Source: a virus. Taken from it: DNA of 64,000 nt. This document shows positions 214-35,581 of this stretch, piece after piece (position 1 is the first letter of the stretch; every line of letters begins with the position of its first letter). Under the pieces are notes generated by a model that saw only the letters and a list, made by a program, of their open reading frames with translations, searched no databases and was not told the DNA's origin. The stretch is taken from IMG/VR virus record IMGVR_UViG_3300045988_165974, positions 64,001 through 128,000 of that record. One strand, given 5' to 3'. Position numbers and translations under genes: made by a program.

Positions 214-323
214 ATGATGGGACTTTCAAAGTCCCTATATGGTAGTAATTGGTTCGCCTCCACGTGGCACTACTGGAAACAAGTTTACTTGGCTAAGAAC
301 CAAAAAAAGAAGGGATAAAAAAG

Positions 324-3019: not shown

Positions 3020-3038
3020 GAGCAGCAATGCTCCACTC

Positions 3039-3098
3039 TAAACTCACTTGGCACATGTCAAAAGGTCCAAAGTCCTTGAAAAGAGTGATGGGAGTAAA
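3039..3098 (+). ncRNA. conserved three-way-junction RNA element, copy A (class unknown)
   Basis: UAA, then P1 ACUC/GAGU, P2 UUGGC-ACAU-GUCAA, and P3 AAGG/CCUU with loop UCCAAAGU. 3' tail GAUGGGAGUAAA. Same architecture as copy B, with compensatory changes in all three helices. Confidence 0.6.
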
Positions 3099-3675: not shown

Positions 3676-3689
3676 AACCTCTCTTGCTT

Positions 3690-3747
3690 TAAACTAGCCA
3701 CCAGAAGGTGAGAGTCCAAAGCCTCTGTGAATAGTGATGGGAGTAAA
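3690..3747 (+). ncRNA. conserved three-way-junction RNA element, copy B
   Basis: UAA, then P1 ACUA/UAGU, P2 CACC-AGAA-GGUG, and P3 AGAG/CUCU with loop UCCAAAGC. 3' tail GAUGGGAGUAAA. Junction lengths are identical to copy A. Confidence 0.6.
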
Positions 3748-5613: not shown

Positions 5614-6453
5614 ATGAAACAATTAGAGGATTTAACAGGAATGAAGTTTGGACTATTAACTGTAATAGAACTCGACCATAGAGAAAATGGTCACTCATAT
5701 TATAAATGCAAATGTGAGTGTGGCAATGAATGTATTATATATTCATATAGCCTTAAAAATGGGAATACAAGAAGTTGTGGCTGTTTAAGAAAAAAGGAAT
5801 CAGAAGATTTAACTGGTAAAAAATTTGGTATGCTTACAGCTATAGAAAAGGTTAAATCTAATGATGATAGTCATAAAAGCTATTGGAAGTGGCAATGTGA
5901 GTGTGGTAATCAAAAAATTATAAGAGCTGACTCAGTTAAAAGTGGTTACGTAAAGAGCTGTGGTTGTTTAAATAAAAAAAATCAACTTGATATTCCAGAA
6001 GGTAGTAGATACGGGAAACTTACAGTTATTAAAAAAGTAGGACAAAATAAACAAAATTATATTATGTATAAATGCAAATGTGATTGTGGTAATACAGTAA
6101 TTGTTAAAGGTTCTAGTTTATGTAGGGGAGCAACTCAATCTTGTGGATGTATAGCTACAGAACGTATTAAAAAGATGCAGCCTATTGCAAAAGACGTCGG
6201 AAGATATGCTGGAACTAAAATTGGTATTATTAGTAATAATAAACTGAATAGGAACAACACTAGCGGAACAAAAGGTGTTTACTACATTAAACAACGTGAT
6301 AAATGGAGAGCCGCTATAGGGTTTAGGGGTAAAACTATACATTTAGGAGAGTTTAAAAACAAAGAAGATGCTATTGAAGCTAGAAAAAAAGCAGAATTAA
6401 AATATTTCAAGCCAATAATAGAAGAATATAACGAGATTAAAGGAAATAATTAA
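5614..6453 (+). CDS. AP2-domain DNA-binding protein with three N-terminal Cys4 repeats
   Basis: Three repeats of LTG-KFG-LT-I...C-CECGN...SCGCL. The C-terminal SGTKGVYY..RDKWRAAIGFRGKTIHLGEF...EDAIEARKKAE is AP2-like. Confidence 0.75.
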   Translation: MKQLEDLTGMKFGLLTVIELDHRENGHSYYKCKCECGNECIIYSYSLKNGNTRSCGCLRKKESEDLTGKKFGMLTAIEKVKSNDDSHKSYWKWQCECGNQKIIRADSVKSGYVKSCGCLNKKNQLDIPEGSRYGKLTVIKKVGQNKQNYIMYKCKCDCGNTVIVKGSSLCRGATQSCGCIATERIKKMQPIAKDVGRYAGTKIGIISNNKLNRNNTSGTKGVYYIKQRDKWRAAIGFRGKTIHLGEFKNKEDAIEARKKAELKYFKPIIEEYNEIKGNN

Positions 6454-6487
6454 TATTCCAAAATAAAAAATAAAATATATAAGGGAT

Positions 6488-6520
6488 AGAGCAGCTTAAT
6501 TGCTGCTTTATTTTTTTTTA
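6488..6520 (+). terminator. rho-independent terminator
   Basis: Stem agagcagc/gctgcttt followed by a T-run. Confidence 0.7.
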
Positions 6521-6539
6521 TAAAAATTCCATATAATAG

Positions 6540-6568
6540 TTGACATACTTACATAAAAGTATTAATAT
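6540..6568 (+). promoter_or_regulatory. sigma-A type promoter
   Basis: TTGACA, 17-nt spacer, TAATAT. Confidence 0.6.
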
Positions 6569-6622
6569 ATAAATATAGTTAGTTTTACACAAAAACAAAA
6601 TTTCTAAAAGGGGGATGGAGAT

Positions 6623-7357
6623 ATGTTTACACTAGGCAACAGTAAAATTAAAACGGCACTAAGAAATATATCACAAAGGAAGTATGATTGTGATGTGTTT
6701 AAAATGGAAGTAAATAGTATATCAGAAATATGTAAAAAAGAATTTCAAGCAGAATATAGTAAGATGGAAAAATTCTCTTTCAACAAAGGATATCTTGAAT
6801 TTACATTTAAAGACCAAGCAGTAATTGGCTATTTTGAAATACAAGGATTTAATATAAGTTTAATTATTGCTCCCACAAATAATGTTTATGGCAGTAGTTT
6901 TATCTTTAATGCAAATATAAAAGATATGCAAGGAGAAGTTGGATATGTAAAGAATTCTTTATTAATATTAGTGGAAGAAGATGAATCTTTGCATAAGAAA
7001 ATTAGTGCAATTGGAAAGACATTATGCGAAGGAATCTTAGTTGCAAATTATTTAGCTCAAACAAATCCAACAATAATAAAAGACAATGAAACTAGGATTG
7101 TTAAAAAGTCAAATAAAAAGAGAAAACATAAAAATAAAACTATCAGGAAAATAAACCTTACTAATATAAGACATGTAAAAGAATACAGTAATACTAATAT
7201 AAATACAGATAAAAGAAATTACGAAAGACATACTGAATCTTGGACTGTAAGAGGGCATTACAGACATTATAAAAGTGGTAAGGTAGTTTGGATAGAACCA
7301 TCTACTAGAGGGACTGGAAAACCTCAAGGAAAAGTTTACAATATAAATGTTGAATAA
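6623..7357 (+). CDS. hypothetical protein with basic C-terminal region
   Basis: ORF track; GGGGGA RBS. Confidence 0.55.
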   Translation: MFTLGNSKIKTALRNISQRKYDCDVFKMEVNSISEICKKEFQAEYSKMEKFSFNKGYLEFTFKDQAVIGYFEIQGFNISLIIAPTNNVYGSSFIFNANIKDMQGEVGYVKNSLLILVEEDESLHKKISAIGKTLCEGILVANYLAQTNPTIIKDNETRIVKKSNKKRKHKNKTIRKINLTNIRHVKEYSNTNINTDKRNYERHTESWTVRGHYRHYKSGKVVWIEPSTRGTGKPQGKVYNINVE

Positions 7358-7370
7358 GGGGGACTAAAAC

Positions 7371-7745
7371 ATGGTAGAAGTAAATAAATTATACAGATGC
7401 AGACAAGATATAGTTTTAAATCCAAGTACAGTTGATAAAATCAATATATCATTAGACTTAGATATGGGAAATACAGTTATGGCAACTATTGATGATGTTG
7501 GGATATATAAACCTATAACAATTTCAGAATTTAATTTAGCAAAAGAAATACTTAAGAAAAAAGCAGAGCAGCTAATTATAGAGAATAAAGAAGTGGACCA
7601 TGTAATATACTCTATAGTAGAAACTGACTATGAAGGTTATTGTAATCGAATAATTATATGTCTTATTCCTCTTACTCATGAAGAATATGTTAGAAGAATG
7701 AGACTTTTAAACGACACAACAAAGTGTTTTGTATTAAATAGATAA
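7371..7745 (+). CDS. hypothetical protein
   Basis: ORF track; GGGGGA RBS. Confidence 0.55.
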   Translation: MVEVNKLYRCRQDIVLNPSTVDKINISLDLDMGNTVMATIDDVGIYKPITISEFNLAKEILKKKAEQLIIENKEVDHVIYSIVETDYEGYCNRIIICLIPLTHEEYVRRMRLLNDTTKCFVLNR

Positions 7746-7759
7746 TAGGAGGGTTTTAT

Positions 7760-8707
7760 ATGAGTAATTGTTATAAAGAGTTTTTAGGATATATGAAAGA
7801 TGTGCAAGGAGTTGATAATAAAACTCTAGTATGTTACGAAAAAAATTTAAAAGACTTTAACGAGTATATTTTTGGTGGGAAAGCAGATACTACTTTTGAA
7901 GAAATAGCAAACTTAAAAGTATCTGAAATACAAACAAAATGGCTCAATAGACTTAAAGATGAAAAAGGATATAAATCAAATACCTTAAACAACCGCATAA
8001 TTACACTTACAAGACTTTACACATATATGGTAGGAGAAAACTATACTACTGTAAATAAAGGCAAACTAATACCTCATTACAAAGGCGACAAGAAAGTTAA
8101 AAAAGAAATATCAACTGATGATTATATATCTTTATTAGAAGAACTTAGAAAAAATAGAGATAAAAACTTCACTAGTCTTAGAAATTGGTTTATGGTAGAA
8201 TTCTTTTTAGCAACTGGACTTCGTAGAGCGGAAATCATAGCATTAGACATCGAAGATGTAAATATTCTTACTGGTGAAATAAAAGTCACTAGAAAATATG
8301 ACGAAGGTGTTAAATTTGGTAAAGAAAGAATAGAGTATCTTCCAGAAATACTTTTAGATGATTTACACTATTATCTTTCACATAGATTAGACATAGAAAC
8401 AGATAGTGATGCTTTCTTTATTTCTACTCATAAAAAAAGAATGTGCGCATCTAATATCAATAAGCTGCTTAATAAGATAGCAGATAATAACGGCATGAAA
8501 ATACACCCTCATATGCTTAGAGCGGGATTTTCAAGCAATACCATTAATAGTGGTAGGGTAGAATCATATGAAGTCGCAGAAGCGATGGGACACAGTAATA
8601 AGACTACTACTTTGAACTATTATCATAAGTCTAATACAGAAGTATTAAAGAAAGTTGCCAACAGTAATATGATATTTGACAAAAGACAAGATGATAATGT
8701 AATATAA
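7760..8707 (+). CDS. tyrosine recombinase/integrase (XerC/D-like)
   Basis: ATGLRRAE (Arg box), HPHMLRAGF (HxxR) and GHSNKTTTLNYYH (Tyr box). Confidence 0.85.
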   Translation: MSNCYKEFLGYMKDVQGVDNKTLVCYEKNLKDFNEYIFGGKADTTFEEIANLKVSEIQTKWLNRLKDEKGYKSNTLNNRIITLTRLYTYMVGENYTTVNKGKLIPHYKGDKKVKKEISTDDYISLLEELRKNRDKNFTSLRNWFMVEFFLATGLRRAEIIALDIEDVNILTGEIKVTRKYDEGVKFGKERIEYLPEILLDDLHYYLSHRLDIETDSDAFFISTHKKRMCASNINKLLNKIADNNGMKIHPHMLRAGFSSNTINSGRVESYEVAEAMGHSNKTTTLNYYHKSNTEVLKKVANSNMIFDKRQDDNVI

Positions 8708-8740
8708 AAATAGTATAAATAAAATATAGAGGTGATTAAT

Positions 8741-9430
8741 ATGATGAAAAACAAAAACTCAATTGGGTTCTATATAGAAAGTTTAGGATTCGATTTAGAT
8801 AAAGTTTGGGATTTTGAAAAGAATACAAAAAATCCTGATGAAGTTACAAAAATGTCAAATGTTGAAATATGGTTAAAATGTGTTAATCATGATTATCACG
8901 GCAGCTATAAAACAACTGCTAAGGCTTACTATTATTCCTCTTCTACAGAGGGATATGGTTGCCCTTACTGTTCTAAAATAAGTCCAAATAGAAAGGTCCA
9001 TATACTTGATAGTTTTGCATATAAACATCAAGATTGGGCAAAATGGTGGGATAGTTCTAATAAGAAAACTCCTTTTGAATGCAAAGGAAATGAACAACAT
9101 GAGACATTTAAATTTACTTGTCCTGTTTGTGGCTACAGTTTTGAAAGTACATTAATGTTCCTTTCTGATTTAAAATTTAAACATGTATGTGAATCAGATA
9201 AAACAAGAGGTAAGGGGTATGATGAATATCAAGATTACAGAAAACAACAACAGTTTGAAAGAGCAGCAAAGCACATAAAGAAATCTGGTAAAGGAGAATG
9301 GGAACTTATAGAATTCAATGGAACAAACAGACCTGGTACTGTTAAGCATCATTGTGGAGCAACTAAGACAGTTACTAGAATATCTTCTTTATATAATAAA
9401 AATATAGTTTGTCCTAATTGTGATAAATAG
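8741..9430 (+). CDS. multi zinc-ribbon protein (treble-clef type)
   Basis: ATG with a GAGGTGA RBS (the track start at 8732 is GTG). GCPYCS, CPVCGY and CPNCDK motifs. Confidence 0.6.
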   Translation: MMKNKNSIGFYIESLGFDLDKVWDFEKNTKNPDEVTKMSNVEIWLKCVNHDYHGSYKTTAKAYYYSSSTEGYGCPYCSKISPNRKVHILDSFAYKHQDWAKWWDSSNKKTPFECKGNEQHETFKFTCPVCGYSFESTLMFLSDLKFKHVCESDKTRGKGYDEYQDYRKQQQFERAAKHIKKSGKGEWELIEFNGTNRPGTVKHHCGATKTVTRISSLYNKNIVCPNCDK

Positions 9431-11032: not shown

Positions 11033-11310
11033 CAGAGAATGTTGATATTTCAACAATAACTCCAATTTTAGGTAGTTGCATCATTATTATTATTCTCTCT
11101 ATATAGCTAACGCCAAATTCTTTTCCGATAAACGAGAAATATTCTTTAAATTTTCCCAAGTGATTAATTAGTTTTCGTGATATAAAAACACATGGAAAAT
11201 TCTGTTCAGATTTATTTTTATCTTCCCTCACTTCATAACAAATAGATAAGATAGAAACAACTAGATGTTCAGTCCAGCTAAAAAAACATCTGAACTTTTA
11301 CAAATTATTC

Positions 11311-11339
11311 TTGACATTTTTATATTAAAATACTATAAT
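11311..11339 (+). promoter_or_regulatory. sigma-A type promoter
   Basis: TTGACA, 17-nt spacer, TATAAT. Confidence 0.65.
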
Positions 11340-11451
11340 CTACTTATAAACAGTAAAGGAGAGATTCAATCATGAAAAATAACTCTTCATTTTATAGGAA
11401 ATAAGGGTTTTATACTTGTTGTATAATTCCCAAATAAAAAGGAGAAGGAAA

Positions 11452-12369
11452 ATGAAAGAAATCAATATTTATAACGAAAAAAAAGTAGAAGAAGTTATGT
11501 CAACATGGAAACCAACTGCAAGAAATTCTGCTAAAGGTGGTTATAAAAAATTACTTTTTTACTTAAAAAGAGAAGGTTCTTTAAAAGTAAAAGGGAAAAA
11601 CTATTATACAACAAAAGACATGTTAGACAGATATTTAGAAGAGACAACAAATAAGAGTTCGTATCAGGCTATGAGTATTATTAAAACTTATATGAACAAA
11701 CTGTTTAGAGAGTTGGAAATTGATTATCAATTCGAAGCAATATCTAGTAAGCAATACATTAGAAATACAGACTTTTACAACAAAGAAGAAGTAAAACAAA
11801 TAGCTCTATTAACTAGAAATGCACAGGATAGATTTATAATCTACGGACTGTTTAGCGGTCTAAAAGGCAGCAAGTTTTGTGAGTTATTAGATTTAAAAAC
11901 GAAAGACATAGATTTTAAGCACAATCTAATTAAAATAAACAATAGAAAAATAGAAATGGATGAATTCATGACTATGATAGCTAAAGATACAGTTAATCAA
12001 GAAATTTATTATAAGAAAGGGGAGAAAGAAAACACTAGTAAGTCATCTATGTTTTATGAACTTAATATGCATAGTGAATATGTTTTAAAACCAAAGCCAT
12101 ACGCTAAAAACAATAAAGGTTTAAAGCCATTTAGTTTATGTGGATTTAAAACAAAGCTAGAAAAAATAAGTGCAGATTTAGAGGGTTCTAGTTTTTATCC
12201 AGTTTTAGCAGACAAACTGTATAAGTCAGGAATCTTATATCAAATGAAAAAAATAGAAGAAGAAACAGGTATAGTATGGAAAAATAAAAATCTTGATGAC
12301 TGGAAAAAAACAGAAGGCTTAATTTTTGGTACTTCTGAAATTCTAAATATCTATAGACAAATGAATTAA
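11452..12369 (+). CDS. hypothetical protein, possibly a degenerate integrase fold
   Basis: ATG with a GGAGAAGGA RBS, in frame within track ORF 11416..12369. RFIIYGLFSGLKGSKFCELLDLKTKDID resembles the Arg-box region of tyrosine recombinases. No HxxR or Tyr box was seen. Confidence 0.5.
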   Translation: MKEINIYNEKKVEEVMSTWKPTARNSAKGGYKKLLFYLKREGSLKVKGKNYYTTKDMLDRYLEETTNKSSYQAMSIIKTYMNKLFRELEIDYQFEAISSKQYIRNTDFYNKEEVKQIALLTRNAQDRFIIYGLFSGLKGSKFCELLDLKTKDIDFKHNLIKINNRKIEMDEFMTMIAKDTVNQEIYYKKGEKENTSKSSMFYELNMHSEYVLKPKPYAKNNKGLKPFSLCGFKTKLEKISADLEGSSFYPVLADKLYKSGILYQMKKIEEETGIVWKNKNLDDWKKTEGLIFGTSEILNIYRQMN

Positions 12370-12802: not shown

Positions 12803-13723
12803 ATGAATAATTACAGTACAGAAGTTAAGAAAAGATTTTGTAAAGACTTTGACATTCCAATTAAGATATATAGCGAGCCTTACTGGAGTTACTTGACAAA
12901 CTTATATGAAAACTATTTTGGATTGTCAGATAAGTTTATTTTACTAGATGAAGAAATCAGTAAATGCAATTCAGAGCAAGAGTTTTTAGATAAAATGTTT
13001 CATCTTAGAGACGATATTATAACAAAAACAAAAGAGACGGATGCTTATAAACATTTTTTAGAAATGGATATGAATAAATATGGGGTTAAATCAAAATTTT
13101 CAAGTAAGCACATTTATAATAATCAAAATGTTGGAAAAGTCTTTATATCAATTGACTTGATAAAAGCAAACTTTCAAGCATTAAAATATATTGATAAAGA
13201 CCTCGTATTTGGCTCTGAGACATACGGAGAGTACCTTGACGGGTTTACCGATAGTAAGTATCTAAAAGAGAGTAAAAGGCTAAGACAGGTCATTTTTGGG
13301 AATATGAATCCTAAGCGACAAGTTACAGTAGAAAAATTTCTAATGAATCAAGTCCTAGGCTTATTGGAAAGAAAATATGAATTAGGGACAATAGTTTCTT
13401 TTTCCAATGATGAAATCATATATCAAGCAGATGATTTTGTTGCAGAATATTTAACTAATTTTCTTCCTGAAAATATAAAAAACATAGTAAAGGCAAATTT
13501 AGGATTAGATGTTCGTGTTGAAATATTTAAACTTTGCAAAATAGAAAATTCAGACTTCTATGTAAAAGAGGATTTAAATACAAATGGATATAAATTGATG
13601 TGTGTTCCAGCGAATTACTTTTCTCAAGCATATAAAAAATATAACGGATTACAAATTGTTGATATGGATTTAACTTTCTGGTATGAAAATCAATTGTGTA
13701 AATTTATAAATCCATTGTTTTAG
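12803..13723 (+). CDS. hypothetical protein (weak PolA-palm-like motif pattern)
   Basis: ORF track; GGAGATGA RBS. See findings for the speculative motif resemblance. Confidence 0.6.
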   Translation: MNNYSTEVKKRFCKDFDIPIKIYSEPYWSYLTNLYENYFGLSDKFILLDEEISKCNSEQEFLDKMFHLRDDIITKTKETDAYKHFLEMDMNKYGVKSKFSSKHIYNNQNVGKVFISIDLIKANFQALKYIDKDLVFGSETYGEYLDGFTDSKYLKESKRLRQVIFGNMNPKRQVTVEKFLMNQVLGLLERKYELGTIVSFSNDEIIYQADDFVAEYLTNFLPENIKNIVKANLGLDVRVEIFKLCKIENSDFYVKEDLNTNGYKLMCVPANYFSQAYKKYNGLQIVDMDLTFWYENQLCKFINPLF

Positions 13724-13733
13724 GAGGAAGAAA

Positions 13734-14903
13734 TTGCTAAAGAGTTACAAAACGGAAATAAACCCAACACAGGAACAAATACAAAAGATAAATAAAACAA
13801 TTGGAACTTGTAGATTTATTTATAATTTTTACATCGCTCATAATAAAGAACTCTATAACAAGGGCGAAAAATTTATGACGGCAAAATCATTCAGTGTTTG
13901 GTTAAATAATGAATTTCTACCAAATAATCCGAATTATTCATGGATAAAAGAAGTAAGTTCTAAATCAGTTAAAAAATCTATGGAAAATGCTTATACTGCT
14001 TTTAATAAGTTTTTTAAGAAACAAAGTAAGTTTCCTAGATTTAAGAAAAAGAATAAATCTGATGTAAAAATGTACTTTGTAAAAAATAATCCAAAAGATT
14101 GTTTCTGTGAAAGACATAGAATTAATATTCCTACTCTTGGATGGATTAAATTAAAAGAAAAGGGATATATTCCTACTACTAAAGACGGATATGTAATTAA
14201 AAGTGGTACGGTTTCTTGCAAAGCTGGAAGATATTATGTATCAGTTTTAATTGATACTTCTGATACAGAAAAACCACAATTAAATGACTTTGGATTAGGA
14301 ATTGATTTAGGTGTTAAAGAATTTGCGGTAATTAGTAATGGAACTATAAAGAAAAATATAAATAAAACTGCTAAATTAAAAAAAATAGAAAAACAATTAA
14401 AAAGAGAACAGCGTTGCCTATCGAGAAAATACGAAGGATTAAAGAAACGCAACAATAAAATGAAAGGAGAAGCCACTAGGCAAAATATTAAAAAACAAGT
14501 CTTAAAGGTACAGAAACTTCATCAAAGAATGGATAATATTCGTACTGATTATATCAATAAATGTGTAAATGAGATAGTGAAAACCAAGCCATCTTATATT
14601 ACCATTGAAGATTTGAATGTAAAAGGAATGATGAAGAATAAACATCTCTCTAAGGCAGTTGCTTCACAGAAATTCTATGAATTTAGAACTAAACTTGAAA
14701 CAAAATGCAAAGAATTAGGAATTGAATTAAGAATTGTAAATAGGTGGTATCCATCGAGTAAATTGTGTCATGAATGTGGTTGTATCAATAAAGATTTAAA
14801 ACTTTCTGACAGAGAATATATTTGTGGATGTGGATACCATGCTGATAGAGATTATAATGCAAGTCTTAATTTGAGAGATGCAATATCCTACAAAATAGCA
14901 TAA
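13734..14903 (+). CDS. tnpB: TnpB (RuvC-like RNA-guided nuclease family)
   Basis: RuvC triad contexts GIDLGVKEF, ITIEDLNVKGM and HADRDYNASLNL. Zn finger CHECGC...CGCG. AGGAGG RBS with a TTG start. Confidence 0.85.
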   Translation: MLKSYKTEINPTQEQIQKINKTIGTCRFIYNFYIAHNKELYNKGEKFMTAKSFSVWLNNEFLPNNPNYSWIKEVSSKSVKKSMENAYTAFNKFFKKQSKFPRFKKKNKSDVKMYFVKNNPKDCFCERHRINIPTLGWIKLKEKGYIPTTKDGYVIKSGTVSCKAGRYYVSVLIDTSDTEKPQLNDFGLGIDLGVKEFAVISNGTIKKNINKTAKLKKIEKQLKREQRCLSRKYEGLKKRNNKMKGEATRQNIKKQVLKVQKLHQRMDNIRTDYINKCVNEIVKTKPSYITIEDLNVKGMMKNKHLSKAVASQKFYEFRTKLETKCKELGIELRIVNRWYPSSKLCHECGCINKDLKLSDREYICGCGYHADRDYNASLNLRDAISYKIA

Positions 14904-14904
14904 A

Positions 14905-15094
14905 CAAGCATTTGTAGGTATGTACCGATGGCTTTAGTCGGGAATTTACGACTGTGGACTGTACAAGAACTTGTGAGTAGTGTATTACTTTGTAATCACA
15001 AAAGCATACAGGATGAAACAGTAAGAAAAGTTTGTGAAAACTTTCAATATCTCGATATGGGTATATTTGTCCATATTTTGAGTGGCAGGAAGAC
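14905..15094 (+). ncRNA. putative omega-RNA (reRNA) scaffold of the solo TnpB
   Basis: Lies directly 3' of tnpB. About 100 nt (ATGTACCGATGGC...CACAAAAGCAT) are highly similar to the orphan copy at 35185. The 5' boundary probably lies inside tnpB, so both ends are approximate. Confidence 0.5.
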
Positions 15095-15349
15095 ATGCAG
15101 CTATATAGAACAAAGAGAAATGAGTTAAATGATAAGTTAAGAAATACAAAAACTATGGACCAGTTGTTATCTCTTGAAGGAGAAACTCTGTGTCATGGGT
15201 TTGGTTTCTATTCAAAACGTTGCCAAGATAGACAAATAAGTAATTTCAGAAATGGAGTTGACGGCAAAGTCCAATATCTATATGTTGATGACAAGAAGTT
15301 AGGATATTCTCAAATAAAAAATCTATATAAATATTTTGAAATCAGATAA
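15095..15349 (+). CDS. hypothetical protein
   Basis: ORF track. The AGGAAG RBS-like sequence lies at the presumed right end of the TnpB unit. Confidence 0.45.
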   Translation: MQLYRTKRNELNDKLRNTKTMDQLLSLEGETLCHGFGFYSKRCQDRQISNFRNGVDGKVQYLYVDDKKLGYSQIKNLYKYFEIR

Positions 15350-16244: not shown

Positions 16245-17078
16245 ATGAATGAATTAATAAAAGTATTTAATTTTGAAGGAAAAGAATTAGAAGTATTAAT
16301 GTATAACAATGAAGCTCTATTTAATCCAAGAGATGTTGGAAGATGCTTAGAAATCTCTGATGTAACAGTTAGAAGACATATGCAAAATATGAATCAAAAA
16401 CAATTTATTAAGCTTACAAATTCAGATGTTCAAGATATGAACTTCCGAAAATTAAATAATGCAGGAGAAAACTTCTTAACAGAATCTGGTGTTTATAAGC
16501 TTATTTTTAAGTCCCATAAAGAATCCGCAGAGAAATTTCAAGACTGGATAACAGATGAAGTTCTTCCAAGTATAAGAAAACATGGAACATATATGACGGA
16601 TAATGTATTAGAACAAGCAATATCAAACCCAGATTTTTTAATAGGATTACTACAAAATTTAAAGGAAGAACAACAACAAAGAAAAATAGCAGAAGAAAAA
16701 GCTAAAGTATTAGAAATTGAAGTAGACCATAAAGAGGATGTTATTGTTGGTCTTTGTCAAGATATATCTTTAGCAGAAAAAAGACAAAGAATAAAACAAA
16801 TTATAAATCATAATTCAAACGGTAGATATTCAGACAGATATAATCTTTTATATAAAGAATTCCAAGACAAATACCACATAGATTTAAAAAGACGTATGAA
16901 TAATCTTGAAGTCAAATCAATTAATGAAAATAGACATCATGAATATATTAAAATTACATCAAAAATTAAAACTAATAAAATGGAATATATAGATAAAATA
17001 TTATGCATGATTCCTGAACTGTACGAAATCAGCTGCAAGATATTTGAAAACGATGTCGCAGAACTAATGAAAGAATAG
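16245..17078 (+). CDS. BRO-N domain antirepressor-like protein
   Basis: FNFEGKELEV...NNAGENFLTESGVYKLIFKSHKESAEKFQDWITDEVLPSIRKHG is typical of the BRO-N domain. ATG with a GGAGAAG RBS. Confidence 0.8.
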   Translation: MNELIKVFNFEGKELEVLMYNNEALFNPRDVGRCLEISDVTVRRHMQNMNQKQFIKLTNSDVQDMNFRKLNNAGENFLTESGVYKLIFKSHKESAEKFQDWITDEVLPSIRKHGTYMTDNVLEQAISNPDFLIGLLQNLKEEQQQRKIAEEKAKVLEIEVDHKEDVIVGLCQDISLAEKRQRIKQIINHNSNGRYSDRYNLLYKEFQDKYHIDLKRRMNNLEVKSINENRHHEYIKITSKIKTNKMEYIDKILCMIPELYEISCKIFENDVAELMKE

Positions 17079-17109
17079 GAAACAACAATAATATAAATTG
17101 GAGGACAAA

Positions 17110-17436
17110 ATGAGAAAAGAAATAACTAAAGAAGAATGGTTTCAATATGAATTAAAGGTACATTTTTCGGATGGAGCATACAGAAAAAGAACCTTAGAAA
17201 GATACAGCCCGTTAGACGAAGAGAATTTTTTATATTACCAAATGAAATTACCAATTTGGAAAATGGACACAGGAGAATATTACAATACGAATTTTATTAC
17301 ATCTATAGAAATTGGAATTAAAGATATTCAAAATGTAATTGGAGATTCAGAATTGGGCCTTGGATTATATGCAACGTTAGAAGGAATAGAGAAATATAAC
17401 GAGGAGGTTTTGAAAAAGAAAAAATGGCAATTTTAA
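17110..17436 (+). CDS. hypothetical protein
   Basis: ATG with a GGAGGA RBS, within track ORF 17098..17436. Confidence 0.55.
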   Translation: MRKEITKEEWFQYELKVHFSDGAYRKRTLERYSPLDEENFLYYQMKLPIWKMDTGEYYNTNFITSIEIGIKDIQNVIGDSELGLGLYATLEGIEKYNEEVLKKKKWQF

Positions 17437-25815: not shown

Positions 25816-25862
25816 GAAGGGTTTTAACAGTTAAATAAAATATATAAATATCTATAAATATA

Positions 25863-25891
25863 TTGTAAAATTTTATAGATTTCGATATAAT
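25863..25891 (+). promoter_or_regulatory. promoter inside the IS607 left end
   Basis: TTGTAA, 17-nt spacer, TATAAT. Confidence 0.5.
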
Positions 25892-25911
25892 ACTATTGAG
25901 GTGATAAATAA

Positions 25912-26538
25912 ATGAAATATTACTCAATAGGAGAATTTGCGAACCAAATAGGCAAGACGGTTCAAACACTTAGAAATTGGGATAATAAAGGAACTTTAAA
26001 ACCGCATCATGTAACAGTAGGCGGAACAAGGTATTATTCTCAAGAACAACTTAATCATTTCTTAGGACTTAAAAATATGGAATCTAAAAATAAAAAAATT
26101 ATTGGTTATTGCAGAGTTAGTTCTTATAAACAAAAAGACGACCTTGAAAGGCAAATTGAAAATGTAAAAACATATATGTATGCAAAAGGTTATCAATTCG
26201 AGATTATTTCTGATATTGGAAGTGGAATAAACTATAATAAAAAAGGATTAAATCAATTAATAGATATGATTACTAATTCAGAAATAGATAAGATAGTAGT
26301 CCTTCATAAAGATAGATTAATTAGATTTGGATATGAATTAATAAAAAATCTTTGTGATAAGTATGGGACTACTATTGAAATTATAGATAATACCGAGAGG
26401 ACAGAAGAACAAGAATTAGTTGAAGATTTAATTCAGATAATCACTGTATTTAGCTGTAGACTTCAAGGTAAAAGAGCTAATAAAGCTAAGAAAATGATTA
26501 AGGAGTTGATAGAAGATGATACTTGCAAAGAAAGTTAG
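25912..26538 (+). CDS. tnpA: IS607-type TnpA (MerR-like HTH plus serine recombinase)
   Basis: HTH YSIGEFANQIGKTVQTLRNWDNKG. Catalytic region IIGYCRVSSYKQKDDLERQ. Confidence 0.85.
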   Translation: MKYYSIGEFANQIGKTVQTLRNWDNKGTLKPHHVTVGGTRYYSQEQLNHFLGLKNMESKNKKIIGYCRVSSYKQKDDLERQIENVKTYMYAKGYQFEIISDIGSGINYNKKGLNQLIDMITNSEIDKIVVLHKDRLIRFGYELIKNLCDKYGTTIEIIDNTERTEEQELVEDLIQIITVFSCRLQGKRANKAKKMIKELIEDDTCKES

Positions 26539-27631
26539 ATTGTGCCCAAGTGAACTACAAGAAGAAAAAATATGGCAATCAGTAGGGACTGCAAGATTTA
26601 TTTATAATTGGACTTTAAATAGGCAAGATGAAAATTATAAAGGTGGTGGTAAATTCATACCTGATAGTGTTCTTAGAAAAGAAATAACTCAATTAAAGAA
26701 AACTGACTTAAGTTGGTTAAATGAAGTATCTAATAATGTTGCAAAACAAGCTGTAAAAGATGCCTGTGATTCATATAAAAGATTCTTTAAAGGATTGTCA
26801 GGTAAACCTAGATTTAAAAGTAGAAAAAGAAGTAAGAAGTCTTTTTATCATGACAATGTTAAACTTAAAGTCAAGGATAATAAATTAGTTAAGATTGAAA
26901 AGATAGGTTGGATTAAAACTAATGAGCAACTATCTATTGGAGCTAAATATAGCAATCCAAGAATAAGTTATGATAACAAATATTGGTATTTATCAGTAGG
27001 TATAGAACAGGAAGAAATCCAAGAAGAATTAACAGATGCATCATTAGGAATAGATTTAGGATTGAAAAACTTAGCAATCTGTTCTGATGGCACAGTATAT
27101 AAAAATATAAATAAAACTTGTACAGTCAAAAAAATCGAAAAGAAACTAAAAAGATTACAAAGACAAATAAGTAGAAAGTATGAAAAAAATAAAAAAGGAA
27201 AGGAGTATGTCAAAACTAAAAATATTATAAAACTTGAAAAGCAGATACAACAGACACATAGAAGATTAGCTAATATTAGAAATAACTATCTTCATCAAAC
27301 TACTACAAGTATAGTGAAAACCAAACCATACAGAGTTGTAATAGAAGATTTAGCAGTTTCTGATATGATGAAAAATAAACATTTATCTGATGCTATAAGA
27401 AAACAAGGATTCTATGAATTTAGAAGACAACTTGAATACAAGTGCAATTTTAGAGGAATTAAGTTAGTCGTAGCAGATAGATTTTATCCATCGTCAAAAA
27501 TTTGTAGCCAATGTGGAGAGATTAAGAAGGATTTAAAGATATCCGATAGAGTATACAAGTGTAATTGTGGGCTTGTGATTGATAGAGATTTAAATGCAAG
27601 TATTAATCTTTCTAAATATAAATTAGCATAA
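26516..27631 (+). CDS. tnpB: TnpB (IS607-associated)
   Basis: RuvC triad contexts GIDLGLKNL, VVIEDLAVSDM and VIDRDLNASINL. Zn finger CSQCG...CNCG. Confidence 0.85.
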   Translation: MILAKKVRLCPSELQEEKIWQSVGTARFIYNWTLNRQDENYKGGGKFIPDSVLRKEITQLKKTDLSWLNEVSNNVAKQAVKDACDSYKRFFKGLSGKPRFKSRKRSKKSFYHDNVKLKVKDNKLVKIEKIGWIKTNEQLSIGAKYSNPRISYDNKYWYLSVGIEQEEIQEELTDASLGIDLGLKNLAICSDGTVYKNINKTCTVKKIEKKLKRLQRQISRKYEKNKKGKEYVKTKNIIKLEKQIQQTHRRLANIRNNYLHQTTTSIVKTKPYRVVIEDLAVSDMMKNKHLSDAIRKQGFYEFRRQLEYKCNFRGIKLVVADRFYPSSKICSQCGEIKKDLKISDRVYKCNCGLVIDRDLNASINLSKYKLA

Positions 27632-27792
27632 TATCATTAATAAGATAATGCTAATATGTAGGATGCGTTGTATCCAAATTTACGCCCTTGGAGAGTTATA
27701 TCAAACGAAAGTAGGTTGTTATTTATAATTTCCAAAATCGAATTCGTAGAACAGGGAATTAAACAAGATTTATAGATATTTATAGATTTTTG
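27632..27792 (+). ncRNA. putative omega-RNA region of the IS607 TnpB
   Basis: Non-coding tail 3' of tnpB. It begins with TGTAGGATGCG...AAATTTACGCCCTTGGAGA, which parallels GTAGGTATGTACC...GAATTTACGACTGTGGA of the other TnpB. Confidence 0.4.
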
Positions 27793-27806
27793 GCAACGGA
27801 GTAAAT

Positions 27807-28424
27807 ATGGAAGAAATAAAAGAAACACAAGTTGTTAATGAAGAATTAGAAAGCCTAAAAAAAGAAAAAGAAGCAACACTTAAAAGATTGACTGTTTTAT
27901 CACAAGAAAATGAAATGTTGAGTTCTATAATAGAAGATTATCAAAAAGAATCGGGAGTTAAATTCAATCTTAACAAAGGAAAATTACTTCCTGCTTTGGT
28001 AGCTACACAAATGGAATTAAAAGAGGTTGAAAAAAGTAGTGAAAACCCTTTCTTCAATTCTAGTTATGCAGATTTATCTACGATAATAAAAGAGACAAGA
28101 CCAATCCTAGCAAAACATGGCTTAGTAGTCGTACAAGCTCCGATTAATGGTAAAATGGGATTAGATAAGAAACCAACACTTACAGTAAAAACAATTCTTT
28201 TCCATGAGGATGGAGAATTTATAGAATATGATTCAACTACCTTTGCTCCAAAAAACCCAGCAGATATACAGGCTTGGGGTTCTGCTATGACTTATTTAAA
28301 ACGTTATACTTTGCAATCATTATTATGCATTTCTTTCAAAGTAGAGGACGATGACGGAAATTCAAATAGTGGAAAATCACCAGTTAAAGCTACTCCAACA
28401 AAGACAAAAGGTAATAGACTATAG
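27807..28424 (+). CDS. ERF-family single-strand annealing protein
   Basis: NPFFNSSYADLSTIIKETRPILAKHGLVVVQ matches the ERF core. Confidence 0.7.
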   Translation: MEEIKETQVVNEELESLKKEKEATLKRLTVLSQENEMLSSIIEDYQKESGVKFNLNKGKLLPALVATQMELKEVEKSSENPFFNSSYADLSTIIKETRPILAKHGLVVVQAPINGKMGLDKKPTLTVKTILFHEDGEFIEYDSTTFAPKNPADIQAWGSAMTYLKRYTLQSLLCISFKVEDDDGNSNSGKSPVKATPTKTKGNRL

Positions 28425-34390: not shown

Positions 34391-34802
34391 AGCAATACAA
34401 AATGTTGCTTTTATCAAAAAAGGCGAAATATACGATGCAACAGTCAATCATTGGGGAAATTATAGTATTTCTATAGATGGAGTGAGTCGTAGTTTCTCTC
34501 CTAAGTGGTTTGAGAAAATAACAAGAAAGGAACAAAAGCAAATGAAAAATAATAACACTATTTATGAAATGCCGTCATATGTAACACTTCTTAGTGAAGG
34601 AGATGTAACTAAAGTTATATTTAACGAAGAAAAAGGAGTTACAGTTGTAAAACTTAATGATGGAACAAAAGCAACTGCAAGATGTAGTGAACATGATATA
34701 TTTTGTAGAGAAACAGGTTTTAGAGTTGCTTATGCAAAGGCAGAAATAAAACAACTTAAAAAAATGATAAAAGACAGAGAAGAATTTATAGCAAGAGTTT
34801 AA
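34380..34802 (+). CDS. hypothetical protein
   Basis: ORF track; overlaps the upstream stop codon. Confidence 0.55.
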   Translation: MKVRAIQNVAFIKKGEIYDATVNHWGNYSISIDGVSRSFSPKWFEKITRKEQKQMKNNNTIYEMPSYVTLLSEGDVTKVIFNEEKGVTVVKLNDGTKATARCSEHDIFCRETGFRVAYAKAEIKQLKKMIKDREEFIARV

Positions 34803-34896
34803 AACTCAATAGAAAAATAAAAGTTGCCAACTGTCTATTGAGTTAATATAAAAAAGGTATGTGGATGTTTTAAATAGCTACATACCTTTAATCGTA

Positions 34897-35356
34897 AAAG
34901 GAGGAATGTTAAGTAACTAAAAACATAATCAAATGTGAGTCAATGTACTCAAAGATACTCAAAATCCAGAGTATTAGCTGGTGACTTAAAACCGCTGAAA
35001 TCTTAGGAAAGATAAGCCAGTACAAGTTGAAACAGTCTTGTTAACTATGGGGCAGAACCCTGATGGTAAAGATTGAGCAATGGTAGAAGTCTACGAAAAC
35101 CAAGTAGCAGAACATAAAATATTAGGAAAGGAAAAGCTATTTAGATGAAACCTGTATCTAATCAATAGAAAGGAATTTACAGGCATGTACCGATGGCTTA
35201 GTCGGGAATTTACGACTGTGGAGTGTACACGAACCTGCGAGTAGCGTATTACTTTGTAATCACAAAAGCATGCACATTGAAGCAGTAACTGCAAGTCGTG
35301 AGACTGCAGCGAATCATCTAGCATATACACATTTGTATATGTTCTTAGTAGCAGAT
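34897..35356 (+). mobile_element. decayed TnpB element retaining its omega-RNA end
   Basis: AGGAGGAATGTTAAGTAAC parallels the RBS and start of tnpB at 13722 (AGGAGGAAGAAATTGCTAAAGAGTTAC) but hits a stop after 4 codons. The 3' part is homologous to 14910-15090. Confidence 0.55.
35175..35356 (+). ncRNA. orphan omega-RNA-like scaffold (no adjacent tnpB)
   Basis: ATGTACCGATGGC-TTAGTCGGGAATTTACGACTGTGGA.TGTACA.GAAC.TG.GAGTAG.GTATTACTTTGTAATCACAAAAGCAT is shared with 14920-15008. The remainder is more diverged but alignable. Confidence 0.6.
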
Positions 35357-35368
35357 GAATTATGAATT

Positions 35369-35581
35369 ATGAAATGTTTTAGAGGAATAAGTGGTTGTGT
35401 GGGATATTCAAATGGAGAATGTCATAGTATAGAGAATTGTAAGTATCAAGATTATTTTTATAATAGCACAACAAATGACAACAGTTCAAAATCTACTAAC
35501 GAATGCAGTAAGAAAGGATTTTGCCCATATAAATCAGGTGATTGGTGTACAGTGGTAAAAAATTGTGCTTATAAAGGTTGA
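35369..35581 (+). CDS. small Cys-rich protein
   Basis: ORF track; 8 Cys; no obvious RBS. Confidence 0.4.
   Translation: MKCFRGISGCVGYSNGECHSIENCKYQDYFYNSTTNDNSSKSTNECSKKGFCPYKSGDWCTVVKNCAYKG

What the first reader, a model, noticed from the sequence alone, without database searches (positions are those of the whole stretch)
34897..35356. Orphan omega-RNA-like scaffold with no adjacent tnpB, homologous to the solo TnpB's guide-RNA region 20 kb away
The 570-nt gene-free gap between 34802 and 35369 contains a segment (about 35185-35272) that is nearly identical to the non-coding tail just 3' of tnpB (about 14920-15008): ATGTACCGATGGC(T)TTAGTCGGGAATTTACGACTGTGGA...GTATTACTTTGTAATCACAAAAGCAT. The next ~90 nt are more diverged but alignable.

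Upstream, AGGAGGAATGTTAAGTAAC mirrors the RBS and first codons of tnpB but stops after 4 codons. The stretch just before the scaffold resembles the last codons of tnpB. The locus therefore looks like a tnpB element whose nuclease gene was deleted while the RNA scaffold stayed well conserved.

The intact TnpB at 13734..14903 keeps its RuvC D/E/D contexts and could load this second scaffold in trans. The 3'-adjacent sequence, running into the start of the Cys-rich ORF at 35369, would then act as a second guide. One nuclease with a split-off extra guide RNA would be a CRISPR-like intermediate state. A non-autonomous PATE/MITE-like derivative is the alternative.
Basis: partly seen in the sequence, partly recalled or inferred. 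Interest (0 to 1): 0.75.

Follow-up and report, generated by a model that had tools for sequence, protein, structure and literature searches.

The report
Gene-less jumping element carrying guide RNA
The "orphan" guide-RNA scaffold is real, but it is one copy of a 451-base, gene-less mobile element that carries a complete guide RNA for a TnpB nuclease encoded elsewhere, plus a conserved folded RNA of unknown function, and this family has not been described in the literature I could search.

Summary
Window 35184-35354 is a complete IS607-type TnpB guide scaffold (reRNA; Rfam RAGATH-18 at 35215-35288). It closely resembles the scaffold 3' of the solo tnpB.

It is not a local deletion scar. Positions 34904-35354 are one copy of a discrete 435-459-bp element with no ORF. 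I found about 50 copies at 31 distinct sites in rumen and gut phages, prophages and metagenomes. Every complete copy has the same compact layout.

Sibling phage contigs keep both empty sites, with no target duplication. The AGGAG at the left edge is the known TnpB target-adjacent motif (TAM) and also the host gene's Shine-Dalgarno (SD) sequence. Nearly all copies sit exactly between an SD and a start codon.

The solo TnpB is about 79% identical to the tested nuclease ISFba1 (PDB 8IAZ). The 20 bases after the element match the empty site in sibling phages.

The most likely mechanism is trans-acting TnpB homing and retention of a non-autonomous element. That step is inferred, not shown.

The 215-nt core (34936-35150) is a strongly covarying structured RNA. 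It has no Rfam match and no detectable relation to tnpB or to IStron group I introns. Its function is unexplained.

The "CRISPR-like intermediate" reading is not supported.

The parts
34899..34903 (+). AGGAG: the target-adjacent motif (TAM) abutting the left end, and at the same time the Shine-Dalgarno sequence of the interrupted host gene
   Evidence: AGGAG or a close variant precedes nearly every copy. 5'-AGGAG is the experimentally determined TAM of ISFba1-type IS607 TnpBs (PMC11061315). Empty sites read AGGAG|target.
34904..35354 (+). The whole non-autonomous IS607-family element: 451 bp, no ORF, no target-site duplication
   Evidence: 79% identical over its full length to Butyrivibrio virus Ceridwen 16800-17253. 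53 covariance-model hits in fetched loci. Sharp 3' boundary after GCAG. Empty sites in L061, L003, L051, L062 and L063.
34904..34937 (+). Left end: 6-8 poorly conserved bases, a vestige of a tnpB start (TTG/ATG-CTA/TTA-AGT-AAC-TAA), and the left arm of the terminal inverted repeat (34916-34937)
   Evidence: Inverted repeat 34916-34937 / 35328-35349, 22 nt, 86% complementary. Equivalent subterminal repeats occur in the solo tnpB element, the IS607 copy and c-st ISCbt4-a. The repeat shows no RNA-level covariation, so it is probably a DNA feature, possibly a transposase binding site.
34936..35150 (+). Family-specific structured RNA core of unknown function. It holds hairpins 34936-40/34947-51, 34954-60/34969-75, 34979-82/34991-94, 35022-26/35037-41, 35044-47/35064-67 with 35049-51/35058-60, and 35091-94/35104-07. 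It also holds the long-range helix 34995-35004/35069-35077 and an A-rich linker 35109-35150.
   Evidence: 59 proposed pairs are 97% canonical across 35 copies. 22 pairs change on both sides. 0 of 500 shuffles reach the observed values, and slid controls give 31-40% paired. The long-range helix is 99.6% paired, with 5 of its 8 pairs compensatory. No Rfam match at E<=10. No similarity to TnpB or TnpA.
35151..35183 (+). Pre-scaffold hairpin, positioned like the hairpin that spans the tnpB stop codon in tnpB-linked elements
   Evidence: 6 pairs, 100% paired, 3 compensatory. Hairpins occupy the same position just 5' of AUGUACC in the solo element, the IS607 copy and c-st ISCbt4-a.
35184..35214 (+). 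reRNA 5' flanking motif (stem-loop CCGAU/GUCGG)
   Evidence: 30 of 32 identical to the solo TnpB's copy. 94.7% mean identity in the family. Corresponds to the 37-nt 5' flank of ISFba1 reRNA.
35215..35288 (+). RAGATH-18 motif, the core of the TnpB guide scaffold
   Evidence: Rfam RF03064, 64.2 bits against a gathering score of 44.9. The apical stem 35248-51/35257-60 shows 4 compensatory pairs within the family.
35289..35354 (+). reRNA 3' flanking motif: SL2 35289-93/35305-09, SL3 35321-29/35334-42 (which contains the right inverted-repeat arm), and the terminal UAGUAGCAG
   Evidence: SL2 has 3 compensatory pairs and SL3 is 99.7% paired. Experimentally used scaffolds end in ...AGTGGCAG or ...AGTAGCAG immediately before the guide (Table S2 and primers of PMC11061315).
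35355..35374 (+). Predicted 20-nt guide, ATGAATTATGAATTATGAAA, which is the host flank and runs into the start of the Cys-rich ORF
   Evidence: Unique in the window. AGGAG plus the first 15 nt of this guide occurs as an uninterrupted empty site in four sibling viral stretches (L003, L061, L062, L063) and in metagenome locus L051. From 35355 the window aligns at 97.5% to L003 and L061.
35369..35581 (+). Host gene downstream (70 aa, Cys-rich), separated from its former SD-like AGGAG by the element
   Evidence: ORF list. Same gene in L003 at 11275-11487, preceded by AGGAG 10 nt upstream of its ATG. No Pfam family.
13722..15088 (+). Candidate trans-acting partner: the solo tnpB element. TAM/SD AGGAG 13722-13726, tnpB 13734-14903, reRNA about 14919-15088, RAGATH-18 14951-15024.
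   Evidence: E 1e-189 and about 79% identity to ISFba1 TnpB, PDB 8IAZ. The IDLG, IEDL and DRD motifs are kept. All three Pfam TnpB domains are present.
25820..27801 (+). Complete IS607-type element (provisional ends): TnpA serine recombinase 25912-26538, TnpB 26516-27631, RAGATH-18 27685-27758. Probably not cognate to the orphan.
   Evidence: Pfam MerR + Resolvase, and the TnpB domains. Its TnpB is 42% identical to the solo TnpB. Its RAGATH-18 matches the orphan's at only 37 of 74 positions. Its terminal inverted repeat, 25837-68/27759-90, has a different sequence from the orphan's.

Best explanation
Window 34904-35354 is a non-autonomous (gene-less) derivative of an IS607-family transposon.

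What it keeps:
- the DNA ends: a TAM-adjacent left end, 22-nt subterminal inverted repeats, and a terminal AG that matches the last two bases of the TAM;
- a complete, selectively maintained TnpB guide RNA (reRNA/omegaRNA): pre-scaffold hairpin, 5' flank, RAGATH-18, and a 3' flank ending in GCAG.

Where tnpB would lie it carries a 215-nt conserved structured RNA of unknown role.

Shown: it is mobile DNA, it inserts next to AGGAG with no duplication, and it almost always lands between a gene's Shine-Dalgarno sequence and its start codon.

Inferred:
- The element is transcribed by read-through with the host operon.
- A TnpB made elsewhere binds the scaffold. In this window the best candidate is the ISFba1-like solo TnpB at 13734-14903.
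- The 20 nt after the element act as the guide.
- The complex cuts AGGAG-flanked empty copies of the same site, either in a co-infecting sibling phage or after excision. Recombinational repair from the occupied copy then re-installs the element (homing and retention).
- Moving to new AGGAG sites needs a cognate serine recombinase. The window probably does not encode one, because the IS607 copy has different terminal repeats.

In this phage the element also marks an exact 2,646-bp deletion that removed a cytosine methylase gene and three small ORFs. The deletion runs from the element's right end to the next AGGAG site.
For: Guide scaffold: RAGATH-18 hit above the gathering score. Flanks and terminal GCAG match the architecture of validated reRNAs.

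Selection on the scaffold: reRNA parts are 82-95% identical across 35 copies while flanks are 33-47% identical. Stems carry compensatory changes.

Family: the same compact layout is seen in Ceridwen, IMG/VR contigs, GTDB genomes and metagenomes. There are 53 covariance-model hits and no copy has a tnpB inside.

Empty sites:
- L061 has both sites empty.
- L003, L051 and L007+L063 have site 1 occupied and site 2 empty.
- The window joins site-1 upstream DNA (99.2% identical) to site-2 downstream DNA (97.5% identical) across the element.

The TAM is AGGAG as published. 27 of 31 distinct sites have a start codon 4-14 nt after the right end. Only 35 of 122 AGGAG sites on the window's + strand are SD-like.

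Partner nuclease: the solo TnpB is about 79% identical to ISFba1 with its catalytic motifs intact. The orphan scaffold is much closer to the solo's than to the IS607 copy's.

The guide target exists in nature: AGGAG plus the first 15 nt of the guide occurs in four sibling viral stretches and one metagenome locus.

Precedent: PATEs encoding omegaRNAs that TnpB acts on in trans (10.1101/2023.03.14.532601). 36% of RAGATH-18 RNAs are not next to a TnpB (PMC11061315).
Against: No expression, binding or cleavage data exist.

The orphan's 3' flank is only 48% identical to the solo TnpB's own, although its architecture is conserved. Cross-recognition is therefore unproven.

Ceridwen, a complete cultured phage genome, carries the element but encodes no TnpB or TnpA. 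Most fetched loci show no tnpB nearby. The partner must often be host-encoded, or absent.

No sigma-70-like promoter lies inside the element, and a hairpin resembling a weak terminator lies just upstream.

The model does not explain why a 215-nt structured RNA is conserved. It also does not explain how genes cut off from their SD are still expressed.
Confidence: 0.7

Rival explanations
1. Mini-IStron. The 5' module would be a self-splicing (group I-like or new) ribozyme that removes the whole element from the mRNA. Splicing would rejoin AGGAG to the start codon so that the host gene is still translated. The guide RNA at the 3' end would compete with splicing, as in IS607-type IStrons.
For: - The element separates the SD from the start codon at about 27 of 31 sites, yet downstream ORFs stay intact. 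One is a 690-aa collagen-repeat, tail-fibre-like gene in the cultured phage Ceridwen. Another is a 669-aa methylase in L003, L051 and L007.
- The solo TnpB's relatives include c-st and D-1873 elements at 64% identity. IS607-type IStrons such as CbISt3 carry RAGATH-18 in their right end.
- ORF-less IStron variants of 482 nt are known (PMC4227781).
- The element ends in G.
- The core is a multi-helix RNA with invariant single-stranded motifs.
- The invariant AUCAUCU in the reRNA 3' flank can pair with three different GAUG motifs. This hints at alternative folds.
Against: - A covariance model of the core finds nothing in the bona fide CbISt3 intron.
- The canonical group I motifs seen in CbISt3 (CAACGACUAU and GAUAUAGUCU) are absent.
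- No conserved sequence complementary to AGGAG exists to act as an internal guide for the 5' splice site (alignment).
- Rfam's group I model does not hit. This is weak evidence, because the same model also misses CbISt3.
- Insertions inside ORFs are essentially absent, although 54% of AGGAG sites in the window are intragenic. Published IStrons do interrupt genes.
Confidence: 0.15
2. The structured core is independent cargo, such as a regulatory, protective or protein-binding RNA that benefits the phage or the element. On this view the reRNA and the ends are only the vehicle. The core's function would have nothing to do with TnpB.
For: The core is as conserved as the scaffold (84.7%) and has strong covariation. 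It has no counterpart in tnpB-linked elements. The element persists in a phage without TnpB or TnpA.
Against: The core was never found without the reRNA in three collections. A possible helix links the core's linker (35141-48) to the reRNA 3' flank (35314-21). It has one covarying pair in 8 sequences. Both observations suggest functional coupling.
Confidence: 0.2
3. CRISPR-like intermediate: one nuclease with a split-off, re-purposed second guide directed at foreign DNA.
For: The scaffold and the nuclease gene are physically separate. The scaffold is intact.
Against: The guide is the element's own flank and matches the element's own empty site. There is no repeat-spacer array. The guide differs at every insertion site in step with the flank. 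This is the ordinary transposon-homing arrangement.
Confidence: 0.03
4. Inert relic: a dead fragment that persists by chance.
For: No protein gene, no internal promoter.
Against: About 50 copies at 31 sites have sharp ends. 22 or more base pairs show compensatory change. Identity falls to flank level immediately outside the ends.
Confidence: 0.03

Closest known systems
ISFba1-type IS607 TnpB with RAGATH-18-derived guide RNA (reRNA) (Ren et al. 2024, PMC11061315; PDB 8IAZ)
   Same: - The same scaffold modules: 5' flank, RAGATH-18, a 3' flank with two stem-loops, and a terminal AGT(A/G)GCAG followed by the guide.
- The same TAM, AGGAG.
- The window's solo TnpB is about 79% identical to ISFba1.
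   Different: In the published systems the reRNA starts 13 nt after its own tnpB. Here no tnpB or tnpA is in the element, and a 215-nt structured RNA takes their place.
PATE-like non-autonomous IS200/IS605 elements encoding omegaRNAs acted on in trans (Meers et al. 2023 preprint, 10.1101/2023.03.14.532601)
   Same: Gene-less transposon derivatives that keep their ends and a guide RNA. They depend on TnpA and TnpB supplied by other copies.
   Different: PATEs belong to the tyrosine-transposase, single-strand 'peel and paste' family, with palindromic end hairpins and TTGAT-type motifs. This element has IS607-type features: an AGGAG TAM, an AG core at both junctions, subterminal inverted repeats and a RAGATH-18 scaffold. 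It also has a large extra structured RNA.
IS607-type IStrons and their ORF-less variants (Tourasse et al. 2014, PMC4227781; Zedaveinyte et al. 2023, 10.1101/2023.11.20.567912)
   Same: A structured RNA at the 5' end and a RAGATH-18 guide scaffold at the 3' end. Element DNA boundaries coincide with potential RNA-processing boundaries. ORF-less versions of about 480 nt exist.
   Different: The 5' RNA here shows no detectable group I features and does not match the CbISt3 intron. The TAM is AGGAG rather than TGGG. Insertions lie at SD-start junctions rather than inside genes.

Membership tests
IS607 TnpB reRNA (RAGATH-18-derived guide RNA) | RAGATH-18 motif recognised by the Rfam covariance model | tested here: met
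   64.2 bits against a gathering score of 44.9, full-length match at 35215-35288.
IS607 TnpB reRNA (RAGATH-18-derived guide RNA) | Conserved 5' flank (~37 nt stem-loop) and 3' flank (~64 nt, two stem-loops) ending in AGT(A/G)GCAG directly before the guide | tested here: met
   5' flank 30 of 32 identical to the solo TnpB's copy. SL2 and SL3 are supported by covariation. The end, TAGTAGCAG, matches the ends of validated scaffolds.
IS607 TnpB reRNA (RAGATH-18-derived guide RNA) | Encoded immediately 3' of an IS607-type tnpB | tested here: not met
   No tnpB lies within the element or next to it. Ren et al. report that 36% of RAGATH-18 RNAs are likewise not next to a TnpB.
IS607 TnpB reRNA (RAGATH-18-derived guide RNA) | Binds TnpB and directs TAM-dependent DNA cleavage | not testable with these tools
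   Needs RIP-seq and cleavage assays.
IS607-family transposon (non-autonomous derivative) | Precise insertion without target-site duplication, shown by empty sites | tested here: met
   Site 1 empty in L061: AAAAGGAG|TGGTATTTTAGTG. Site 2 empty in L003, L051 and L061-L063: AGGAG|ATGAATTATGAATTA.
IS607-family transposon (non-autonomous derivative) | TAM abutting the left end, with the same dinucleotide ending the TAM and the right end (recombinase crossover core) | tested here: met
   AGGAG|left end ... GCAG|flank, with AG at both junctions, in nearly all copies. The crossover role of the AG is inferred by analogy with the GG core of CboIStron.
IS607-family transposon (non-autonomous derivative) | Subterminal imperfect inverted repeats | tested here: met
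   22 nt, 86% complementary, 34916-37/35328-49. Repeats occupy the same positions in three tnpB-linked relatives.
IS607-family transposon (non-autonomous derivative) | Encodes, or is mobilised by, a serine-recombinase TnpA | not testable with these tools
   None is encoded in the element. The window's TnpA belongs to an element with different terminal repeats. Mobilisation needs an excision assay.
IStron (group I intron fused to an IS) | Group I catalytic core in the 5' region | tested here: not met
   Covariance model R1 of the core finds no match in the CbISt3 intron. The R and S consensus motifs present in CbISt3 are absent. Rfam gives no hit, but it also misses CbISt3, so that test alone is uninformative.
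IStron (group I intron fused to an IS) | Internal guide sequence pairing with the TAM / 5' exon | tested here: not met
   No conserved complement of AGGAG is present in the 35-copy alignment.
IStron (group I intron fused to an IS) | Splicing that rejoins the flanks at the DNA boundaries | not testable with these tools
   Needs RT-PCR or RNA-seq.
PATE (IS200/IS605 non-autonomous element) | Subterminal palindromic hairpins and TTGAT-like motifs used by a Y1 TnpA | tested here: not met
   The TAM is AGGAG and the ends are inverted repeats of IS607 type. It works like a PATE but is not a member.
CRISPR-like array | Repeated scaffold or repeat units separated by spacers that match foreign DNA | tested here: not met
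   There is a single scaffold. The guide equals the flank and matches the element's own empty site.

The most novel reading that the evidence does not exclude
The 215-nt core (34936-35150) may be a new class of functional RNA that has become obligately coupled to a TnpB guide RNA in gene-less IS607 derivatives. One possibility is a ribozyme or RNA device that excises or processes the element RNA. Another is a device that restores translation of the gene whose Shine-Dalgarno sequence the element has split from its start codon. Such a function would let a guide-RNA-only parasite sit harmlessly at ribosome-binding sites of phage genes.
Probability: 0.25. Interest if true: 0.85.

Novelty: new variant of a known kind. 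Interest (0 to 1): 0.6.

Why it matters
It gives a natural, well-bounded example of a TnpB guide RNA living apart from any nuclease gene in the IS607/RAGATH-18 lineage. A ready-made comparative series comes with it: both sites empty, one site occupied, and occupied with an adjacent deletion.

The predicted target is present in sibling phages. Trans-acting RNA-guided homing between co-infecting phages therefore becomes directly testable.

It may account for part of the published 36% of RAGATH-18 RNAs that lack a neighbouring TnpB.

Because the TAM is the Shine-Dalgarno sequence, this transposon clade systematically lands at SD-start junctions. All three elements in the window, and the c-st ISCbt4-a element, sit there.

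The unexplained conserved RNA core, and the apparent tolerance of splitting an SD from its start codon, are the parts that could lead to something new.

Tried and rejected
1. Decayed tnpB in the 5' module. tblastn with both TnpBs and TnpA gave only noise, and blastn against the window found only the module itself. Rejected.

2. Group I intron by Rfam. No hit at E<=10 in the window copy or in six further copies. The control failed too: Rfam also misses the published CbISt3 intron. The test is uninformative on its own.

3. My own covariance model of the core, run against CbISt3, c-st DNA and the whole window. It matched only the window's own copy.

4. First attempt to fetch a c-st IStron. The region around CST045 turned out to be an IS200/IS605-type tnpB with no intron. 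Dead end.

5. Internal promoter. None found on the + strand.

6. RNA pairing of the terminal inverted repeats, as a stem that might bring the SD close to the ATG. They are 79.6% paired with no covariation beyond shuffles (135 of 500). Rejected as an RNA helix and kept as a DNA feature.

7. A mini-ORF from the invariant ATG 16 nt before the right end, coupling translation into the host gene. It is in frame with the host start in only about a third of sites, as chance predicts, and has no SD (reasoned). Not supported.

8. Hammerhead-like reading of the invariant CUGAUGG. The motif lies mostly inside a helix and has G where the hammerhead core needs A. Rejected by inspection.

9. Empty and occupied sites for the solo tnpB element in IMG/VR. 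No exact match.

10. The test for ORFs spanning the joined flanks was too crude to identify intragenic insertions.
Full report
**Observation**

The gap between the ORFs ending at 34802 and starting at 35369 holds no conserved ORF.

Window 35184-35288 aligns to 14919-15024, just 3' of the tnpB at 13734-14903. The 5' flank matches at 30 of 32 bases and the next segment at 64 of 74. The following ~66 nt match at only 32 of 67 positions, but both copies end in AGT(A/G)GCAG.

Rfam's RAGATH-18 model (RF03064) scores above its gathering threshold at three places, all on the + strand: 14951-15024, 27685-27758 and 35215-35288.

It is preceded by an IS607-type serine recombinase with MerR and Resolvase domains at 25912-26538.

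**What RAGATH-18 is**

Ren et al. 2024 (PMC11061315) showed that RAGATH-18 is the core of the guide RNA (reRNA) of IS607-family TnpB nucleases. The RNA bound to ISFba1 TnpB consists of:
- a 37-nt 5' flank that starts 13 nt after the tnpB stop codon;
- the 73-nt RAGATH-18 motif;
- a 64-nt 3' flank with two stem-loops;
- the guide.

The TAM is 5'-AGGAG and the optimal guide length is 20 nt.

Their Table S2 and primers show scaffolds ending ...TTTTGAGTGGCAG or ...TTTTTAGTAGCAG directly before the guide. The orphan ends ...CTTAGTAGCAG at 35354. Its scaffold is therefore complete, and the predicted guide is 35355-35374.

The solo TnpB hits PDB 8IAZ, the ISFba1 TnpB structure, with E 1e-189. It is about 79% identical and keeps the IDLG, IEDL and DRD catalytic motifs.

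**It is a discrete mobile element, not a local deletion scar**

A megablast of the region against phage genomes matched window 34895-35358 at 79% identity to Butyrivibrio virus Ceridwen. The flanks there are unrelated.

Pattern scans of IMG/VR, GTDB genomes and metagenomes recovered many more copies. A covariance model of the core finds 53 matches in the fetched loci.

Every complete copy has the same compact layout. The RAGATH-18 motif lies about 150 nt after the invariant CCTGATGGT, and no tnpB lies in between.

Named hosts are rumen and gut Firmicutes: Butyrivibrio, Eubacterium ruminantium, Lachnospiraceae and Catenibacterium.

Identity drops sharply outside the ends:

| Region | Mean pairwise identity, 35 copies |
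|---|---|
| 5 nt just upstream of the AGGAG motif | 47% |
| Core 34976-35112 | 85% |
| reRNA 5' flank | 95% |
| RAGATH-18 | 82% |
| reRNA 3' flank | 87% |
| 3' flank (first 10 nt after the end) | 33% |

**Empty sites**

The predicted empty site, AGGAG followed by the first 15 nt of the guide, occurs uninterrupted in four sibling viral stretches (L003, L061, L062, L063) and in metagenome locus L051. The loci fall into a series:

| Locus | Site 1 (AAAAGGAG\|TGGTATTTTAGTG) | Site 2 (AGGAG\|ATGAATTATGAATTA) |
|---|---|---|
| L061 | empty | empty, 2,646 bp downstream of site 1 |
| L003, L051, L007+L063 | occupied by the element | empty |
| Window | upstream flank of site 1 (99.2% identical) | downstream flank of site 2 (97.5% identical) |

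In the window the element (99.1% identical to L003's copy) joins these two flanks directly.

Insertion is therefore precise and makes no target duplication, as expected for IS607.

The window also carries an exact deletion that runs from the element's right end to the next AGGAG. In the siblings the lost DNA encodes a 669-aa C5 cytosine methylase and three small ORFs. Two routes fit: recombination between two element copies, or a recombinase-mediated adjacent deletion. I cannot tell them apart.

**Target choice**

The flanking AGGAG is both the published TAM and a Shine-Dalgarno sequence.

In 27 of 31 distinct sites, the start codon of an ORF of at least 40 aa lies 4-14 nt after the right end. 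Two more sites have a start at +1. On the window's + strand, only 35 of 122 AGGAG sites are SD-like and 66 are intragenic.

Two explanations are possible. Target recognition may extend beyond AGGAG, or intragenic insertions may be purged by selection.

The two tnpB-bearing elements in the window sit at the same kind of junction, and so does c-st ISCbt4-a:
- The solo tnpB uses the captured SD for its own TTG start.
- The right end of the IS607 copy ends in ACGGAG, 5 nt before the next gene's ATG.

**Anatomy**

- **Left end (34904-34937).** It begins with 6-8 weakly conserved bases. A vestige of a tnpB start follows: relatives read TTG CTA AGT AAC TAA, while tnpB reads TTG CTA AAG AGT TAC. It also holds the left arm of a 22-nt inverted repeat, whose partner lies at 35328-35349.
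- **Inverted repeats in relatives.** Repeats occupy equivalent positions in the solo element, the IS607 copy and ISCbt4-a, each with its own sequence. The repeat shows no RNA-level covariation. I read it as a DNA site for a cognate serine recombinase. This suggests the window's TnpA is not the orphan's mobiliser (inference).
- **Pre-scaffold hairpin (35151-35183).** It has 3 compensatory pairs. It occupies the position where tnpB-linked elements have a hairpin spanning the tnpB stop codon.
- **Origin.** The element descends from a solo-tnpB-like ancestor.

**The unexplained core (34936-35150)**

A structure of 59 pairs is 97% canonical across 35 copies, and 22 of the pairs change on both sides. 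None of 500 shuffles reaches the observed values, and slid controls give 31-40% paired.

The best-supported feature is a long-range helix, 34995-35004 with 35069-35077. It is 99.6% paired, and 5 of its 8 pairs are compensatory.

G-U pairs are tolerated while A-C pairs are rare, so the + strand is the structured one.

Negative results for the core:
- no Rfam match in seven copies;
- not degenerate tnpB or tnpA;
- no sigma-70-like promoter.

**The IStron idea**

I tested whether the core could be a group I intron, as in IStrons. The published IS607-type IStron CbISt3 of phage c-st has RAGATH-18 in its right end and canonical group I R and S motifs in its left end.

Three results argue against the idea:
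- The core model finds nothing in CbISt3.
- The R and S motifs are absent from the orphan.
- No conserved complement of AGGAG exists that could define a 5' splice site.

Rfam's group I model also fails on CbISt3, so its silence on the orphan means little. Splicing is therefore unsupported but not excluded.

It remains attractive because downstream genes stay intact. Examples are Ceridwen's 690-aa collagen-repeat, tail-fibre-like gene and the siblings' methylase.

A possible 8-bp helix between the linker (35141-48) and the reRNA 3' flank (35314-21) has one covarying pair in 8 sequences. The invariant AUCAUCU can also pair with two other GAUG motifs. These may be alternative folds, but that is speculation.

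**Mechanism**

Shown:
- The element is mobile and has no ORF.
- It carries an intact guide scaffold under selection.
- It inserts next to AGGAG.
- Its guide matches empty sites that exist in sibling phages.

Inferred:
- Read-through transcription produces the RNA.
- A TnpB loads the scaffold in trans. The solo ISFba1-like TnpB is the best candidate, because the orphan scaffold is far closer to its scaffold than to the IS607 copy's (64 of 74 against 37 of 74 in RAGATH-18).
- The complex cuts empty sites, and recombinational repair copies the element back in.
- This is the homing and retention model established for IS605 and IS607 TnpB.

Caveats:
- Ceridwen encodes neither TnpB nor TnpA, so partners must often come from the host.
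- Compatibility of the diverged 3' flank is untested.

**Comparison and novelty**

Gene-less transposon derivatives with guide RNAs are known as PATEs in IS200/IS605. ORF-less IStron variants are also known. Ren et al. noted that 36% of RAGATH-18 RNAs lack a neighbouring TnpB, without characterising them.

Searches of the held literature, including a 2026 review of these systems, turned up no description of a non-autonomous IS607 element with a reRNA, or of this core RNA.

I rate it a new variant of a known kind. The CRISPR-like reading is not supported, because the guide is simply the flank.

Noticed in passing
window 242-305, 1471-1534, 3035-3095, 3686-3744 (+): Sub-threshold Rfam hits to an HDV-like ribozyme (37.7 bits) and three type-P1 twister ribozymes (36-45 bits, E 1e-6 to 3e-4). 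They cluster at the left end of the window, all on the gene strand. This may be a group of self-cleaving ribozymes in the same phage that carries three RAGATH-18 RNAs.
   Followed up: no
Its right end finishes in ACGGAG, 5 nt before the ATG at 27807, so the element supplies a replacement Shine-Dalgarno sequence to the downstream gene.
   Followed up: partly
window 13722-13736 and 15080-15097: The solo tnpB uses the captured host SD/TAM (AGGAG, then 7 nt, then TTG) as its own ribosome-binding site. Its left inverted-repeat arm lies inside tnpB codons (13762-13781). The 7-mer AGGAAGA occurs at both junctions, so the exact crossover point is ambiguous. No empty or occupied copy of this site was found in IMG/VR.
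   Followed up: partly
window 35354/35355 junction; L003 8616-11260; L061 (reverse strand) 6373-9018: Relative to sibling phages, the window lacks exactly 2,646 bp. The missing DNA encodes a 669-aa C5 cytosine DNA methylase and three small ORFs. The deletion runs from the element's right end to the next AGGAG site, so it is an element-associated deletion of a probable anti-restriction gene.
   Followed up: yes
L001 3010-3451 (Butyrivibrio virus Ceridwen 16809-17250): In this cultured phage the element sits between the SD and the ATG of a 690-aa collagen-repeat, tail-fibre-like gene. The GenBank CDS start (17202) lies inside the element, in frame. The complete genome encodes no TnpB or TnpA. 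How the gene is translated is unexplained.
   Followed up: partly
L059 4775-4992 (Clostridium phage c-st, AP008983 about 135037-135254, reverse strand): A strong HEARO RNA hit (140 bits), which is the IscB/IsrB guide RNA family. It lies about 1 kb downstream of the ISCbt4-a element, just upstream of CDS CST143.
   Followed up: no
L064 (c-st CbISt3, AP008983 126094-128652): Rfam's group I intron model gives no hit at E<=1 on this published IS607-type IStron, although the canonical R and S motifs are visible by eye. This is a caution for anyone using Rfam to exclude group I introns.
   Followed up: yes
window 35313-35319 with 35062-35067, 35143-35148 and 35192-35196: The invariant AUCAUCU, between the two stem-loops of the reRNA 3' flank, is complementary to three separate GAUG-containing motifs: one in the core, one in the linker and one in the reRNA 5' flank. 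These may be mutually exclusive folds.
   Followed up: partly
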